From the sequence record PV660463: a stretch of DNA of 64,000 bases; one strand, written 5' to 3'. A model generated the notes under the pieces. The model was not told the origin of the DNA and did not search any database. It worked only from the letters and a program-made list of their open reading frames with translations. Shown here one piece after another: positions 34,673-49,691 of the stretch (position 1 is its first letter; each line of letters starts with the position of its first letter). The stretch is from Escherichia phage LF82-41. The position numbers were made by a program, and so were the translations under genes.

Positions 34673-34855
34673 TTATAGTGAATTCACGTAGTCAATGAGT
34701 TCTTGTTCTTTCCTGTCAAATGATTCCAACAATGCTTGATATTCTTCGTCCGTCAAAGGAGCATATTCATCATACGCATTGGTGGCTGCTTGCTCATCCA
34801 ATAGGTCATGGATAAGTTCAAACAGTTTAGTTTTCTCTTCTTTAGTCAATTTCAT
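34673..34855 (-). CDS. hypothetical acidic protein (60 aa)
   Basis: ORF. Confidence 0.45.
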   Translation of the reverse strand: MKLTKEEKTKLFELIHDLLDEQAATNAYDEYAPLTDEEYQALLESFDRKEQELIDYVNSL

Positions 34856-35079
34856 TTAGGTTCACCTTCTTTAACGAAATCTGGGTAAGGGTAAAATCCT
34901 GAGTAAAACCCTTCACCTTTATGATTGCTACAACCTTTGTTCGAACAGTAACACCAATAATCAAAATCACAAGCCATTTCGTCATTGCATAAAGCAAAAA
35001 CTACAGGCCATTCGCATTTTTCGCATTTAGCACCTGTAAGAATTTTTGTTTGACTCATAGCCATGTCACCTTTAAGCAA
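34852..35079 (-). CDS. Cys-rich small protein (75 aa)
   Basis: ORF with 9 Cys (CEKCEW...CNDEMACDFDYWCYCSNKGCSNH). Confidence 0.5.
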   Translation of the reverse strand: MLKGDMAMSQTKILTGAKCEKCEWPVVFALCNDEMACDFDYWCYCSNKGCSNHKGEGFYSGFYPYPDFVKEGEPK

Positions 35080-35282
35080 TATTCTTCTACATGTTGTTTA
35101 CGGCCTTTCTTATCAATAAAGGTATATTCAACGAATGTTCCGATGTAGTCTTTATCTACATCATGTGGACTATTAATTGGACATTTAGTACGACAAATGC
35201 GTTCCCATTGACGAATAATTACTGCCTTATTCTTTGGATCATATGGATGTGGATAATGTATATTCATAATAACGGTTCCCAA
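35055..35282 (-). CDS. hypothetical protein (75 aa)
   Basis: ORF. Confidence 0.5.
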   Translation of the reverse strand: MGTVIMNIHYPHPYDPKNKAVIIRQWERICRTKCPINSPHDVDKDYIGTFVEYTFIDKKGRKQHVEEYCLKVTWL

Positions 35283-35761
35283 TCAACAATCACAATTTCT
35301 AGTTTAGTGGAATACGTATCTAAAATCTCTTCGATGACATCCCAGTTTCCACCACCAATACCTGCACCAATTCTTGGCATATAAATTACAGGCTTTGTTA
35401 TCTTATTCTTTCCAAATTCATTTAATTCTATTATACAATTCATTAAAGCAGAGTACTCAAAATTAGGTCCCGGCTCAAACTGCGTATAAAGATTAAAGCA
35501 ATAAGCTTTATGGGTCTTAAAATATTTTTCATAAACCGAATAAGTCCCGAGTTTAGACTCGTCTCCGAATTCGGTTTGAAGTTTATCGGCTTCCAGAATT
35601 TTTGGATAAGCCTTTGCTAATTGTCCTGCCACACCGGCGCCCATTGTATGAAAACAATTACACCCATGAGCAATATTATTACCTTTAGAAAACAGGGCGA
35701 CAATATCGCCCTTGATATAGTTTTTAATCACTTGCTGCAAGTCCTCTAGTATAAGAGTCAA
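35264..35761 (-). CDS. macro-domain protein (ADP-ribose binding/processing)
   Basis: 165 aa; NNIAHGCNCFHTMGAGVAGQLAKAYP and RIGAGIGGGNW resemble macro-domain glycine-rich loops. Confidence 0.65.
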   Translation of the reverse strand: MTLILEDLQQVIKNYIKGDIVALFSKGNNIAHGCNCFHTMGAGVAGQLAKAYPKILEADKLQTEFGDESKLGTYSVYEKYFKTHKAYCFNLYTQFEPGPNFEYSALMNCIIELNEFGKNKITKPVIYMPRIGAGIGGGNWDVIEEILDTYSTKLEIVIVDWEPLL

Positions 35762-36071
35762 CTAGGCGGTCCACCATAGAATTGCATGCTGCCTTATCTT
35801 TAGGTTCCGCCACCGAGCATTCTAATATTTGCCATTTTTTATAGTATCTTTTAATTAAGGTAGACGCCTTGAACCTACTAGACGCCCCATCTTTTTCTCC
35901 GTCTTTATACGCATATAACAATTTTTGTGAAAAATCTACTTTACACTCTTGACTTTTACCACAATAATCAGACGCCGTTCTGTTTGTATACTCCGTTACA
36001 TCAGTATATGTAGTATTAGCAAGAGCGTTAAATGAAACCAAGCCAACTATTAAAGCTAACATTTTGGTCAT
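35724..36071 (-). CDS. secreted/periplasmic protein (signal peptide, 4 Cys)
   Basis: 115 aa; MTKMLALIVGLVSFNALA signal-like. Confidence 0.6.
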   Translation of the reverse strand: MTKMLALIVGLVSFNALANTTYTDVTEYTNRTASDYCGKSQECKVDFSQKLLYAYKDGEKDGASSRFKASTLIKRYYKKWQILECSVAEPKDKAACNSMVDRLVDSYTRGLAASD

Positions 36072-36610
36072 TCTTTTATTTCCAGTAGTTTATTTGATTT
36101 AAGGTAATTAGCCTTTTCTAGGACTTCAGAAGCATATTTACTTCCAGCACTTGTCTTCCATCCCGCATTATATGAGGATATAGCTTTTCTTATATCCCCG
36201 TTATGTATATTTAACCAATAAGAAAATTCGATATAAGCCCATCTTGCTGAATTAGACCGCTTAGATAGCATTTTCTTAATTTGGGCATCAGTCATATTAT
36301 AACCAAGCTGGTTAATTCTTGCCCTCATTGTTGGTAGATAATTTTGGAACATTCCATACGCATGGTGACCTTTCTTATCTTTAAGATTAATACCGGCAGA
36401 TGATTCCTGCCATAGTATTGCGGCCATTATGTATCCAAGTCCTTTCTTATGCATATTTTCATGCGTTTTAAATTTTCCATCCTTAGAAAACTGTTCCCCA
36501 AACTGATAAGCATAATTCAAGTTATCGAGTTGGACATTACTAAAAGTATGCTCGGAGCTATGTGCTGATAACGAAAGAGCAAATAGACCAGCGAGTAGTG
36601 CTTTTCTCAT
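36068..36610 (-). CDS. periplasmic lytic-transglycosylase-like (SLT-domain) protein
   Basis: 180 aa; signal peptide; WQESS..., YGMFQ, SYNAGW motifs typical of SLT domain. Confidence 0.65.
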   Translation of the reverse strand: MRKALLAGLFALSLSAHSSEHTFSNVQLDNLNYAYQFGEQFSKDGKFKTHENMHKKGLGYIMAAILWQESSAGINLKDKKGHHAYGMFQNYLPTMRARINQLGYNMTDAQIKKMLSKRSNSARWAYIEFSYWLNIHNGDIRKAISSYNAGWKTSAGSKYASEVLEKANYLKSNKLLEIKE

Positions 36611-36618
36611 GTTTACCT

Positions 36619-37077
36619 CTAGATTTTAATCACTGCTTTAGAAGCTTTTCCTGGTAGTCGTTTACTGTTAATAATAGCCATTCTGCATTGAAGAGTCTTC
36701 ATTTTGAATGCTGGATTTTCGCGACAGACTGTAAGTCCTAACCAAAGATTTCCGTCAGTTATTTCTAAACGGCCTGGGCGATATTCGACACCTTCGACAA
36801 AATCTTCATCAACATCTGGACGTGCCGGCATTGATAAAAATTCTGCAACTTCTTTAACATGATTTTTTACTTTATGAAATAATTCAAAAACGTAATTCTC
36901 ATCTATTTCTCTCTGGATGGCACGATCTAAGAGATGTTGAGAATACTTGATATGAAAGCCTGGTAGTCCAAGAGACTTTGCAGCATCTTTTATACCGGCA
37001 TTTATTTTGCGGAACTCCGTTTCAAAGATTCGACGGAGTTTATTACGGCGGATAAAAACTTCCGAATTGATAGTCAT
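36619..37077 (-). CDS. regB: endoribonuclease RegB
   Basis: MTINSEVFIRRNKLRR...LQCRMAIINSKRLPGKASKAVIK matches T4 RegB; start at internal Met. Confidence 0.9.
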   Translation of the reverse strand: MTINSEVFIRRNKLRRIFETEFRKINAGIKDAAKSLGLPGFHIKYSQHLLDRAIQREIDENYVFELFHKVKNHVKEVAEFLSMPARPDVDEDFVEGVEYRPGRLEITDGNLWLGLTVCRENPAFKMKTLQCRMAIINSKRLPGKASKAVIKI

Positions 37078-37085
37078 TTTGATTT

Positions 37086-37137
37086 CTCCTCTAGTTGACA
37101 AGTCTATAGTAACACAACTAGAGGAGAAGTAAACTAC
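37086..37137 (-). promoter_or_regulatory. early-promoter/stem-loop cassette with 12-bp inverted repeat
   Basis: ctcctctagttg...caactagaggag; minus-strand GTTTAC-17-TACTAT; upstream of regB. Confidence 0.55.
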
Positions 37138-37433
37138 TCTTTGAAAGGAATTAACTTTTTAACTGCTTTAGATACTTCGTCACGAACCTGATGGAAGTTC
37201 TTGAGCTGTTCAAGGCGTTGTTCGTAATACGCAATCTCATCTTCTTCAAGACAATCGTCAGCGTCTTCTTTCAGATATGCCTTGTACTCATTAAAGAGGG
37301 CCCATAGGCGGTTCTCAAAGTCATCAAGGCTTTGAATTTTCTTGTGCTTCGGAACAAGGCCAAAAGGATTGCTTTCAGTTATGCGTCTAGATGCTTCATA
37401 ATGAGTTCCAAAGCCTGATAGGATTTGAGCCAT
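37134..37433 (-). CDS. hypothetical protein (99 aa)
   Basis: ORF. Confidence 0.55.
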
Positions 37434-37699
37434 TAGTATTTTTCCTCAGGTCGAAATACTGCACGACAGGCCCACATGCTGGCTTCTTTTAGATGTTGCT
37501 TAGCATACTTAAGAGCCTGTACTGCATCCATATCTTCTTTGGTTTGTTGCTCTGTTTCATTTTCTTTCAAGATATATGCTTCTTCAATCAGAGCATCAAA
37601 CAACAATCCAAGACGGACTTCTGCATCTTTAATAGCGTTCACTTTACCGATTTTATCGTCGGTATGTGGCTTGTAGCCTTTAATATCTTCAATCGACAT
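37433..37699 (-). CDS. hypothetical protein (88 aa from internal Met)
   Basis: ORF 37433..37867 overlaps 37689..37913; internal start avoids overlap. Confidence 0.5.
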
Positions 37700-37913
37700 A
37701 AGGAATTTCCTCATCGGTGGCAAGGTCATATTCGACCAATTGGATAGGCTCATTAATACCATATCCACGTACAGTGATATCAGTTGCCGGATAGTTTCCA
37801 GTAATATCACCCATTCTAAATGCTTCAATGAATGATTGCTCGCCTGAGCAACTAAACCAGGCGGCAAAACATTTTAAAACATCTTCAGACCCTTCTATAA
37901 TCAATTTAGCCAT
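37689..37913 (-). CDS. hypothetical protein (74 aa)
   Basis: ORF. Confidence 0.5.
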   Translation of the reverse strand: MAKLIIEGSEDVLKCFAAWFSCSGEQSFIEAFRMGDITGNYPATDITVRGYGINEPIQLVEYDLATDEEIPYVD

Positions 37914-38275
37914 TATAGGCTCTCAGTAAAGGTACGAGCGATAACGTCACGCTGTTGTTCCGGCGTCAGAGAGTTAAAGCGAACTGCATAACCGGATACA
38001 CGGATGGTCAACTGCGGATATTTTTCTGGATGCTTAACTGCATCTTCCAGAGTTTCACGACGCAGAACATTAACGTTCAGGTGTTGACCACCTTCAATTT
38101 TAACTTTAGGTTGATGTTCAATTTCAATTTCACGGGCATTCAAACCGTAGAAAATTTCCGGGTCTACAATAGCGTCTTCTTTAAAAGTCTTAGAGACGAT
38201 AATCCGGGCTTGAGCACCGTCTTCAAAATAAATAGTGCCTTTATGTGCACCTTCAAGAATTTGATATGCTTTCAT
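37913..38275 (-). CDS. autonomous glycyl-radical cofactor (GrcA/YfiD-like)
   Basis: 120 aa; C-terminal ...[29 protein letters not shown] carries the glycyl-radical RVSGY motif. Confidence 0.8.
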
Positions 38276-40109: not shown

Positions 40110-40390
40110 TATTTTTCTGAAGCGCCTGAAATATATTTTTCAAGACGTTGTTTCATCAGCGAGCCGTTCTTAGCGATTTCTTCTGGTTTATCGCACATAC
40201 GCAACAAGGCTTCAAGCTTAGCGATATCGCTGGTACGTTCAAATTTGCGAGTATCTATCTTACTAGCAAGTTCAGAAATACGTGCTAATAGACTTTCAGC
40301 TTCAACCAAAGCTGCACCTAGCTTAGTTGCAAATGTGTCAGTAGCTTCGTTAAGAATAGATTCTGATAAAAATTCACTATATGTTTTCAT
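40109..40390 (-). CDS. internal-protein-like (leader [10 protein letters not shown])
   Basis: 93 aa from internal Met of ORF 40109..40405. Confidence 0.65.
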
Positions 40391-40875
40391 ATATACGCTT
40401 TCCAAGTTCCTGTTTTAAATGTTGAGATTACGCGTTTCGCGCGATTAGGTGTCTGACGATACCATTTAGATTGAGCTAGATTTACTGCCGCTTCATCCCA
40501 ACGTTTCTGTTTAAGCATACGAAGAGAATTAGTAAAACCAGCGACGCCTGCTACACCCATTTGGAAGACCATATTGACCAATGCACACCGACGAACTGCA
40601 TCTAAAGAATCATATACCGGTTTAAGTTTAGCATTACCCAAGATTCCGCGGACGGCTTTATCAACGTCTTCATTAAATAGCTTTTCAGCCTCATCAAGGG
40701 TAATTGTACCGTTGCATTTACGACCGATCATTCTGTCAAGTTCAGCTTTAGCTACGGCTAAAGACGGGTTCTTTGTTACTAAATGGCCTATGCCAATCGT
40801 CCAAAAGCCTTCAGTGTCTTTGTATAAAGTCAGTCTAAGACCTTCGTCATTACGAAGCATTTCAAATATATTCAT
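40387..40875 (-). CDS. e: lysozyme (endolysin)
   Basis: [32 protein letters not shown]... matches T4 lysozyme. Confidence 0.95.
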
Positions 40876-40903
40876 AATACCTCCCACGTTTATAGGAGGT
40901 ATT
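40876..40903 (-). promoter_or_regulatory. RBS-sequestering hairpin with embedded late-promoter-like TATAAA upstream of e
   Basis: aatacctcc cacgtttata ggaggtatt: SD GGAGGT of e pairs with upstream ACCTCC, as in T4. Confidence 0.55.
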
Positions 40904-40909
40904 TATTAC

Positions 40910-41368
40910 TTATAGGAGGGTAGTGAGCACCTTATATAATGATTTGCCCATTACATATTCCCATTGAGAAGGTTTAATTAAAGCGAATGCATCAAATTCA
41001 GGAATCTGTCGTCCGTTTGGGAATGTATGATAGGAATTGCAAACACTGTTTCTGAATTGCTCGTGCTCTACAGGGATGGTATATAGGAACAGATGAATAT
41101 TCTTATTGTCTGAGTAATTATGTTCACCTAGGTCTTTCAGGAAGGCAGGGTCATATTGTGTAAACCCAGTTTCTTCTTCGCATTCACGAATAGCGGCTTC
41201 AATAGGAGATTCACCAGGTTCGACACGGCCTTTAGGAATATCCCACCGATGAGCTAATGCACCTTTAGGACGAGAACCAGTTACACGACCCATGAATAAT
41301 TCTTTATCTTTTGTCATGAAGATAATACCGGCTGATAGTTCTTTCACTTTATTTTTCTTACTCATCAT
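40910..41368 (-). CDS. nudE: Nudix hydrolase
   Basis: Nudix box GRVEPGESPIEAAIRECEEETG. Confidence 0.85.
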   Translation of the reverse strand: MMSKKNKVKELSAGIIFMTKDKELFMGRVTGSRPKGALAHRWDIPKGRVEPGESPIEAAIRECEEETGFTQYDPAFLKDLGEHNYSDNKNIHLFLYTIPVEHEQFRNSVCNSYHTFPNGRQIPEFDAFALIKPSQWEYVMGKSLYKVLTTLL

Positions 41369-49536: not shown

Positions 49537-49613
<77 letters not shown>

Positions 49614-49616
49614 AAT

Positions 49617-49691
49617 TGGTGACCCTGGCTGGTTTCGATCCAGCTACCTATCAGTTATGAGCTGACAGCTCTCCCATTGAGCTACAGGGCC
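49617..49691 (-). tRNA. tRNA-Met or tRNA-Ile2 (anticodon CAT), CCA encoded
   Basis: Manual cloverleaf: acceptor ggccctg/cagggtc, D-stem gctc/gagc, anticodon loop ctCATaa, T-arm gctgg-atcgaaa-ccagc. Confidence 0.8.

What the first reader, a model, noticed from the sequence alone, without database searches (positions are those of the whole stretch)
35264..35761. Macro-domain protein
Macro domains bind or hydrolyse ADP-ribose derivatives. In a phage such a protein could reverse host ADP-ribosylation-based defences (e.g. DarT-type DNA ADP-ribosylation) or process NAD-derived signals. The glycine-rich loops read here fit the macro fold.
Basis: partly seen in the sequence, partly recalled or inferred. 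Interest (0 to 1): 0.5.

Follow-up and report, generated by a model that had tools for sequence, protein, structure and literature searches.

The report
Phage macrodomain that counters DarT defence

Summary
The ORF is real and encodes a macrodomain. It passes the Pfam Macro cut-off (28.1 bits against 22). It matches PHROG 335 at E=7e-67. An AlphaFold model built on 82 homologues has pLDDT 95.3, and its best structural matches are TARG1, Poa1p, BT1257, DarG and SCO6735.

The true start is almost certainly the GTG at 35731, giving 155 aa. The TTG at 35761 is 30 nt too far upstream.

The window is a Mosigvirus (T4-like) genome, 99% identical to phages whose copy is already annotated "macro domain protein". 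The protein is 85% identical, without gaps, to T4 Tk.4 and sits in the same vs | tk.4 | tk.3 slot.

A 2025 preprint shows that deleting T4 tk.4 sensitises T4 to DarTG2, and renames the gene adfM.

One detail goes beyond the annotation. The catalytic lysine of DarG (K80) and TARG1 (K84) is replaced here by a glutamine, Q84, which is invariant across the family. Streptomyces SCO6735 has the same replacement, and it hydrolyses thymidine-linked ADP-ribose through its Gln85. PhiKZ AdfM keeps the DarG-type lysine.

Verdict: correct, ordinary and already known.

The parts
35264..35731 (-). Coding sequence of the 155-aa macrodomain protein, orthologue of T4 tk.4 / adfM
   Evidence: ORF. Pfam Macro above the curated cut-off. 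85% identical without gaps to T4 NP_049723. Annotated with the same coordinates as 'macro domain protein' in the 99%-identical phage mobillu.
35729..35731 (-). GTG start codon. It lies 2 nt upstream of the vs stop codon (TAA, 35724-35726), so the two CDSs overlap by 8 nt, within GTGATTAA.
   Evidence: Homologous to the T4 ATG, and the upstream frame is not conserved in T4 (in-frame TAG and an indel). Coordinates checked.
35742..35746 (-). Shine-Dalgarno-like GAGGA, 10 nt upstream of the GTG
   Evidence: Read from the sequence. GAGGA is also present in T4, Sf21 and NC-G, with GAGGG in JS98. Its function is inferred.
35654..35668 (-). HGCNC motif (H22-C26). N25 corresponds to the conserved macrodomain Asn: SCO6735 N27 by motif spacing (inference), and PhiKZ AdfM N23 in the hhalign alignment.
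   Evidence: C26 is invariant; H22, G23 and N25 are at least 90% conserved in 82 homologues. The role of the Asn is taken from PMC9411070 and PMC13309987.
35624..35644 (-). Glycine-rich loop 1, MGAGVAG (residues 30-36), the ADP-ribose binding loop after strand 2
   Evidence: G33 and A35 are invariant; M30 and G31 nearly so. The loop lies between E19-25 and H33-41 of the model.
35480..35494 (-). NLYTQ (residues 80-84) at the end of strand E75-84. Q84 occupies the position of the catalytic Lys of DarG (K80) and TARG1 (K84).
   Evidence: N80, Y82 and Q84 are invariant in 82 homologues. Q84 aligns with TARG1 K84 and with the PTK lysine of Thermus DarG. SCO6735 Gln85 is stated to be equivalent to these lysines, and Q85A is inactive.
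35342..35377 (-). Glycine-rich loop 2, PRIGAGIGGGNW (residues 119-130), the phosphate-binding loop. G126 is where TARG1 has its catalytic D125.
   Evidence: P119, I121, G122 and G124 are invariant. Alignment to TARG1 PRIGCGLDRLQW.
35264..35267 (-). ATGA overlap: the TGA stop of the macrodomain gene overlaps the ATG of tk.3, consistent with translational coupling

Best explanation
The gene is the Mosigvirus orthologue of T4 tk.4 (adfM). It encodes a stand-alone, single-domain macrodomain of the ALC1-like (TARG1 / DarG / SCO6735 / Poa1p) class. It lies in a run of small, tightly packed, overlapping minus-strand genes (regB, vs.1, vs, tk.4, tk.3, tk.2, tk.1, tk).

Its most likely job is to act as an orphan antitoxin-like enzyme. 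When a host DarT2 toxin attaches ADP-ribose to thymidines in single-stranded phage DNA, the protein binds the ADP-ribose in the cleft formed by its two glycine-rich loops. It then hydrolyses the ribose-thymine bond, releasing ADP-ribose and restoring replicable DNA.

The lysine used by DarG and TARG1 is replaced by an invariant glutamine, Q84, and the TARG1 aspartate by glycine. The chemistry is therefore probably the one proposed for SCO6735. In that scheme the Gln, held in place by the conserved Asn (N25 here), positions the distal ribose, and a water molecule starts the reaction.

Shown here: gene, fold, orthology, synteny and active-site residues. Shown elsewhere: the anti-DarTG2 phenotype of T4 tk.4, and the Gln-dependent hydrolysis of thymidine-linked ADP-ribose by SCO6735. 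Inferred: that this protein is catalytically active on thymidine-linked ADP-ribose DNA and uses the Gln-type mechanism.
For: Macro family membership: Pfam 28.1 bits against a cut-off of 22; family profile against PDB macrodomains E=4e-17 to 7e-12; AF2 pLDDT 95.3; Foldseek probability 1.00 to TARG1, Poa1p, BT1257, DarG and SCO6735.

Orthology to T4 Tk.4: 131 of 155 residues identical, no gaps. The gene order vs | tk.4 | tk.3 | tk.2 | tk.1 | tk is the same. A vs-type or unnamed upstream gene overlapping or abutting the tk.4 start is seen in six further Tevenvirinae records.

Function of the orthologue: T4 tk.4 was the only significant hit on a DarTG2 host, and a clean knock-out was sensitised.

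Active site: Q84 is invariant and aligns with TARG1 K84 and DarG K80. SCO6735 Gln85 is at the same position and is essential for hydrolysis of thymidine-linked ADP-ribose, as is its Asn27. A different phage macrodomain, PhiKZ AdfM, was shown in vitro to remove DarT2-made ADP-ribose from DNA.

Only the macro half of the DarG models is matched. This fits an orphan enzyme module rather than a full antitoxin.
Against: No biochemistry exists for T4 Tk.4 or for this protein. The preprint itself only says enzymatic removal 'seems likely'.

The DarG/TARG1 catalytic lysine is absent, so activity cannot simply be transferred from DarG.

SCO6735 and DarG also inhibit DarT without catalysis, so protection could be partly or wholly non-enzymatic.

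The phenotype was shown in T4 (Tequatrovirus), not in a Mosigvirus. The evidence is a preprint.

A comparative-genomics study argued that most phage macrodomains act on small ADP-ribose derivatives.
Confidence: 0.75

Rival explanations
1. The protein's main substrate is a small ADP-ribose derivative rather than DNA. Candidates are ADP-ribose-1''-phosphate (a Poa1p-like phosphatase, which is the origin of the 'phosphatase / A1pp' label on T4 Tk.4), O-acetyl-ADP-ribose, or an NAD-derived immune signal. Under this reading, DarTG2 protection is a side activity.
For: Yeast Poa1p is among the best sequence and fold matches, and the HxCNC motif is shared with it. Public records label the family 'phosphatase' or 'O-acetyl-ADP-ribose deacetylase'. 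Iyer et al. 2022 argue that phage macrodomains mostly target low-molecular-weight ADP-ribose derivatives.
Against: These labels were transferred by homology and never tested. The only experimental phenotype of an orthologue is loss of DarTG2 resistance. The Gln/Asn pair matches the enzyme shown to act on thymidine-linked ADP-ribose. Macrodomains of this class are often promiscuous, so both activities may coexist.
Confidence: 0.12
2. The protein protects mainly by binding and blocking the DarT2 toxin or its modified DNA, without hydrolysis.
For: Catalytically dead SCO6735, DarG and TARG1 all inhibit DarT in vitro, and SCO6735 does so most strongly. The canonical catalytic lysine is missing here.
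Against: The protein lacks the C-terminal DarT-binding domain of DarG. Only positions 4-146 of the 329/338-position DarG models are matched. Q84, N25 and both glycine loops are invariant or nearly so across very diverse phages, which argues for a preserved active site.
Confidence: 0.08
3. The protein erases or tunes the ADP-ribosylation made by the phage's own transferases (Alt, ModA, ModB in T4), including ModB-type RNAylation.
For: T4-like phages encode their own ADP-ribosyltransferases (my own knowledge). A phage-encoded eraser would be a natural partner for them.
Against: Alt and Mod enzymes modify arginine. As far as I know, macrodomains of this class are not known to cleave arginine-linked ADP-ribose. 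tk.4 was dispensable on E. coli K-12 and became important only with DarTG2. No transferase gene lies among its immediate neighbours.
Confidence: 0.03

Closest known systems
T4 Tk.4 = AdfM (NP_049723; bioRxiv 10.1101/2025.11.20.689424)
   Same: Both are 155 aa and 85% identical without gaps. They occupy the same genomic slot between vs and tk.3, and share the same start position and all invariant active-site residues.
   Different: The start codon is GTG instead of ATG. The overlap with vs is 8 nt instead of 4 nt. There are 24 substitutions, including G127 where T4 has K. The phage genus differs (Mosigvirus against Tequatrovirus). The anti-DarTG2 phenotype has not been tested in this phage.
Streptomyces coelicolor SCO6735 (PDB 5e3b; PMC9411070)
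   Same: ALC1-like macrodomain with Gln in place of the catalytic Lys, the conserved Asn, and a GxG...GG phosphate loop. It is stand-alone and not linked to a darT gene. It hydrolyses thymidine-linked ADP-ribose on DNA and protects against DarT.
   Different: Only about 22% identical. It is a bacterial chromosomal gene. SCO6735's DNA-positioning lysines K34 and K89 were not mapped here.
DarG antitoxin macrodomain of DarTG2 (PDB 5m31, 5m3i; NCBIfam NF048014)
   Same: Same fold class. By orthologue genetics, it also works against the same toxin, DarT2.
   Different: There is no catalytic lysine (Q84 against K80), no C-terminal DarT-binding domain and no adjacent darT gene. It scores 31.9 bits against a cut-off of 250 on the DarG equivalog model.
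PhiKZ gp104 AdfM (PMC13309987)
   Same: A phage-encoded single macrodomain that counters DarTG2. It carries the same name.
   Different: PhiKZ AdfM is a close DarG relative (E=9e-25 to M. tuberculosis DarG) and keeps the FPTK lysine. The T4-type protein matches DarG only at about E=1e-3 as a single sequence, and it has Gln. The two are distinct lineages within the class. hhalign between them gives E=1.6e-9 and aligns the catalytic strand poorly.
Human TARG1/OARD1 and yeast Poa1p
   Same: They are the best fold matches (TM 0.68-0.80) and share both glycine loops.
   Different: The TARG1 Lys84/Asp125 dyad is replaced by Q84/G126. Poa1p is a phosphatase acting on ADP-ribose-1''-phosphate.

Membership tests
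Macro domain superfamily (Pfam PF01661) | Score above the curated gathering threshold of the family model | tested here: met
   28.1 bits against a cut-off of 22, covering profile positions 2-117 of 118.
Macro domain superfamily (Pfam PF01661) | Alpha/beta macro fold with a central mixed sheet | tested here: met
   AF2 model with pLDDT 95.3 and pTM 0.90. Foldseek probability 1.00 to many solved macrodomains. This is a prediction, not a solved structure.
Macro domain superfamily (Pfam PF01661) | Two glycine-rich loops lining the ADP-ribose cleft, and the conserved Asn | tested here: met
   MGAGVAG, PRIGAGIGGGNW and N25 are present, and they are invariant or at least 90% conserved in 82 homologues.
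Macro domain superfamily (Pfam PF01661) | Binds ADP-ribose | not testable with these tools
   Requires a binding assay (ITC, thermal shift) or a co-crystal structure.
T4 Tk.4 / AdfM orthologous group | Full-length high identity to T4 Tk.4 | tested here: met
   85% identity and 94% positives over 155 of 155 residues, no gaps.
T4 Tk.4 / AdfM orthologous group | Conserved position between vs and tk.3 in the tk-regB gene run | tested here: met
   The upstream neighbour is annotated vs (or mislabelled 'valyl-tRNA synthetase') in four of six further Tevenvirinae records. tk.3 is named downstream only in JS98.
T4 Tk.4 / AdfM orthologous group | Needed for growth on DarTG2-expressing hosts | not testable with these tools
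   Reported for T4. Testing it here needs a deletion mutant of this phage.
DarG antitoxin (DarTG2) | Score above the equivalog cut-off, with a two-domain architecture (macro plus C-terminal DarT-binding domain) | tested here: not met
   NCBIfam NF048014 gives 31.9 bits against a cut-off of 250. Only positions 4-146 of 338 are matched. PADLOC DarG matches positions 4-145 of 329.
DarG antitoxin (DarTG2) | Catalytic lysine (K80 in Thermus and M. tuberculosis DarG) | tested here: not met
   Q84 aligns with the PTK lysine and is invariant in the family.
DarG antitoxin (DarTG2) | Encoded next to a darT toxin gene | tested here: not met
   The neighbours are vs and tk.3 (DUF7202).
TARG1-type glycohydrolase | Lys84/Asp125 catalytic dyad | tested here: not met
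   Q84 and G126 occupy the aligned positions.
SCO6735-type (Gln) ALC1-like macrodomain | Gln at the position of the DarG/TARG1 lysine, plus the Asn that holds it | tested here: met
   Q84 and N25. Equivalence to SCO6735 Gln85 is by transitivity through TARG1 K84 and DarG K80, as stated in PMC9411070. A direct residue-level alignment to 5e3b in this strand was not obtained.
SCO6735-type (Gln) ALC1-like macrodomain | Hydrolyses thymidine-linked ADP-ribose on single-stranded DNA | not testable with these tools
   Needs an in vitro de-ADP-ribosylation assay.
Poa1p-type ADP-ribose-1''-phosphate phosphatase | Phosphatase activity on ADP-ribose-1''-phosphate | not testable with these tools
   There is only sequence and fold similarity. 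The 'phosphatase' label in T4 and PHROG 335 comes from homology.

The most novel reading that the evidence does not exclude
T4-type AdfM/Tk.4 is not a captured DarG. It is a separate, glutamine-type branch of the ALC1-like macrodomains, like SCO6735 and BT1257. It was recruited by phages independently of the lysine-type, DarG-derived AdfM of PhiKZ-like phages. Under this reading, two chemically different erasers have converged on the same host toxin. The Gln-type branch has tblastn matches in about 2,800 of 50,697 phage records, so it may have a wider substrate range than thymidine-ADP-ribose alone.
Probability: 0.45. Interest if true: 0.3.

Novelty: already known. Interest (0 to 1): 0.15.

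Why it matters
It adds little that is new. The gene is already annotated as a macrodomain protein in near-identical phages, and its T4 orthologue has a published (preprint) anti-DarTG2 phenotype.

Its practical value is in annotation. It allows 'phosphatase' and 'hypothetical protein' labels, and at least one truncated CDS call, to be replaced by 'AdfM/Tk.4 anti-DarT2 macrodomain' across Tevenvirinae.

The glutamine-for-lysine replacement deserves a note for anyone planning biochemistry. Mutating 'the DarG lysine' is not possible in this protein. Q84 and N25 are the residues to mutate.

Tried and rejected
Single-sequence AlphaFold gave an unusable model (pLDDT 35.6). It was replaced by a run with an 82-sequence alignment.

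It was rebuilt with P0004 in place of T4.

Pairwise BLASTP against TARG1 aligned TARG1 K84 with K69 of the phage protein. I rejected that register. Two independent profile methods place K84 opposite the invariant Q84 at the end of the same strand, and so does the DarG alignment.

A PDB search with only the C-terminal 101 residues was meant to display the SCO6735 alignment around Gln85. It aligned only the last glycine loop. The Q84 = Gln85 equivalence therefore rests on transitivity through TARG1 and DarG.

The longer TTG-initiated ORF (165 aa) was rejected as the gene.

The promoter scan found no more sigma-70-like sites than shuffled sequence does (12 against 14.4 ± 3.8), so no promoter is claimed.

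AdfN, the NADAR-type anti-DarTG1 factor, is T4 gene 30.3 and is not part of this neighbourhood.

The CmdTAC paper contains nothing about phage macrodomains.

Two literature calls failed because a search term was shorter than three characters.

Full report
**The observation.** The minus strand carries a 165-codon ORF at 35264..35761. Its product passes Pfam's curated threshold for the Macro domain (PF01661: 28.1 bits against 22, nearly the full profile). It matches PHROG 335 at E=7e-67. As a single sequence it hits solved macrodomains in the PDB: BT1257 at 6e-11, yeast Poa1p at 1e-8, SCO6735 at 7e-5, and TARG1 and DarG at about 1e-3.

**Gene boundaries.** Three lines of evidence favour the GTG at 35729-35731 instead.
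- In T4 the homologous position is the ATG of tk.4, preceded by an in-frame TAG, and there is a 1-nt indel further upstream. The 10 extra codons therefore cannot be part of a conserved protein.
- The near-identical phage mobillu starts the CDS at the position equivalent to 35731. Six other Tevenvirinae records, from Tequatrovirus, Dhakavirus, Karamvirus, Jiaodavirus and Krischvirus, start at the homologous position too.
- tblastn matches in more distant phages begin at residue 11 of the long ORF.

The CDS is therefore 35264..35731, 155 aa. A GAGGA lies 10 nt upstream of the GTG. The start overlaps the end of vs by 8 nt (GTGATTAA), and the stop overlaps the tk.3 start (ATGA). Against T4, 61 of 89 nucleotide differences are at third codon positions, and 49 of 74 changed codons are synonymous. 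That is the signature of a protein under purifying selection.

**Where the window comes from.** The 3.2 kb around the gene is 99% identical to Mosigvirus phages (vB_Eco_mar005P1, ATK47, mobillu, NBG1 and others), and several of these already annotate this CDS as 'macro domain protein'. Pfam confirms the neighbours: thymidine kinase, DUF7438 (tk.1), a phage zinc-binding domain (tk.2), DUF7202 (tk.3) and, two genes beyond vs, RegB. The intervening vs and vs.1 ORFs have no Pfam match and are named by position and public annotation. The order is that of T4: regB, vs.1, vs, tk.4, tk.3, tk.2, tk.1, tk.

**Orthology to T4 Tk.4.** The protein is 131/155 identical (85%, 94% positives) to T4 Tk.4, without a gap, and it sits in the same slot. 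It is an orthologue.

**Fold.** Single-sequence AlphaFold failed (pLDDT 35.6). With an alignment of 82 homologues the model reached pLDDT 95.3 and pTM 0.90, with the alternating strand/helix pattern of a macrodomain. Foldseek against the PDB returns, all at probability 1.00, TARG1, Poa1p, BT1257, Thermus and M. tuberculosis DarG, the DarTG fusion of Thermosipho, and SCO6735. These come ahead of the viral MacroD-type domains. A profile of the family gives the same list by sequence, at E=4e-17 to 7e-12. The protein therefore belongs to the ALC1-like class of macrodomains.

**What is known about the orthologue.** A bioRxiv preprint of November 2025 (10.1101/2025.11.20.689424) screened a T4 transposon library on a DarTG2-expressing host. 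It found tk.4 as the single significant hit, confirmed that a clean knock-out is sensitised to DarTG2, noted structural similarity to M. tuberculosis DarG, and renamed the gene adfM. The authors state that enzymatic removal of ADP-ribose from DNA 'seems likely' but do not show it. This fits earlier work showing that T2 and T4 remain DarTG2-resistant without the NADAR factor AdfN, which acts only on guanosine adducts. Independently, a macrodomain of PhiKZ-like jumbo phages, also named AdfM, was shown in vitro to remove DarT2-made ADP-ribose from an oligonucleotide and to protect the phage.

**Active site.** In 82 homologues sharing as little as 37% identity with the window protein, C26, G33, A35, D49, G62, N80, Y82, Q84, P119, I121, G122 and G124 are invariant. 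H22, G23, N25, M30, G31, T83, G88, G127, G128 and W130 are nearly so.
- Profile-sequence (hmmsearch) and profile-profile (hhalign) alignments both put the invariant NLYTQ strand opposite TARG1 YLITK. Q84 therefore takes the place of the catalytic K84, and G126 the place of D125.
- Using the Thermus DarG macrodomain sequence recovered from a PDB alignment, hhalign puts Q84 opposite the lysine of NFPTKK, which is DarG K80.
- The DarG/TARG1 nucleophile is therefore absent from the whole T4-type family.
- SCO6735 shows exactly this substitution. Its Gln85 is described as equivalent to DarG K80 and TARG1 K84. Q85A and Q85E abolish hydrolysis of thymidine-linked ADP-ribose on DNA. Its Asn27, which holds the Gln, is also needed. 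A water-initiated, substrate-assisted mechanism was proposed for it.
- The window protein has the corresponding Asn (N25, in HGCNC).
- PhiKZ AdfM, by contrast, is a close DarG relative (E=9e-25 to M. tuberculosis DarG) and keeps FPTK.
- The two proteins now both called AdfM therefore belong to different branches of the class and probably use different chemistry.

**Not a DarG.** The NCBIfam DarG equivalog model scores 31.9 bits against a cut-off of 250. Both it and the PADLOC DarG model match only their N-terminal macro half. There is no darT gene next door. The protein works like the enzymatic half of an antitoxin but is not a member of the DarG family.

**Rivals.**
- The old 'phosphatase / A1pp' label (T4 record, PHROG 335) and the automatic 'O-acetyl-ADP-ribose deacetylase' names reflect homology to Poa1p and YmdB-type proteins, not experiments. 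A small-molecule substrate remains possible, as Iyer et al. argued for phage macrodomains in general. The only phenotype available points to DarT2.
- Protection by binding rather than catalysis is possible, because dead SCO6735 and DarG still inhibit DarT in vitro. Against this, the strict conservation of Q84, N25 and both loops argues for an active enzyme, and the DarT-binding domain of DarG is missing.
- Erasing the phage's own Alt/Mod modifications is unlikely. To my knowledge those are arginine-linked, and tk.4 was dispensable without DarTG2.

**Verdict.** The finding is correct in both observation and interpretation, apart from a 30-nt overshoot at the 5' end. It is already known: it is annotated in near-identical genomes, and the T4 orthologue has been characterised genetically. 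The one point that goes slightly beyond the literature I could read is the Gln-type (SCO6735-like) active site of the T4-type family, as opposed to the Lys-type site of DarG and PhiKZ AdfM. Interest is low.

Noticed in passing
window 35694-35712 (- strand), tail to 35685: There is a terminator-like hairpin (AGGGCGAT-ATT-GTCGCCCT followed by GTTTTCT) 20 nt inside the macrodomain CDS. The NBG1 record annotates it as a 'terminator' and consequently calls a truncated CDS starting at Met30. The hairpin is kept in 6 of 8 Tevenvirinae compared and lost in two, where the Ala-Leu codons differ. It overlaps the conserved KGDIVAL motif. The surrounding 121 nt fold no better than shuffles (z = -0.64), and window-T4 identity is no higher there than elsewhere in the gene. 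Whether it attenuates transcription between vs and tk.4 is open.
   Followed up: partly
window 40910-41368 (- strand): A Nudix hydrolase (PF00293, E=6e-16) lies next to the phage lysozyme gene at 40387-40887. It corresponds to T4 e.1/nudE.1, which to my knowledge hydrolyses ADP-ribose among other substrates. It could dispose of the ADP-ribose released by the macrodomain. No link was tested.
   Followed up: no
window 35055-35267 and 36068-38000 (- strand); public records MN850622, MH243438, OR544955: Public annotation of this gene run is inconsistent. tk.3 (DUF7202) is labelled 'putative ABC transporter ATP-binding protein'. Several unrelated small genes in mobillu are labelled 'endoribonuclease RegB'. 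vs is labelled 'valyl-tRNA synthetase' in some records. The macrodomain gene is variously called 'phosphatase', 'hypothetical protein' or 'macro domain protein'.
   Followed up: partly
window 34673-35267 (- strand): Three small genes of unknown function follow the macrodomain gene with overlapping stop and start codons: tk.3 (DUF7202), tk.2 (PF23895, phage zinc-binding domain) and tk.1 (DUF7438). They appear to be co-translated with it. Whether any of them cooperates with AdfM is unknown.
   Followed up: no
window 49537-49691 (- strand): There are two adjacent tRNA genes, tRNA-Arg(TCT) and tRNA-Met(CAT). They match the tRNA pair annotated in phage mobillu.
   Followed up: no
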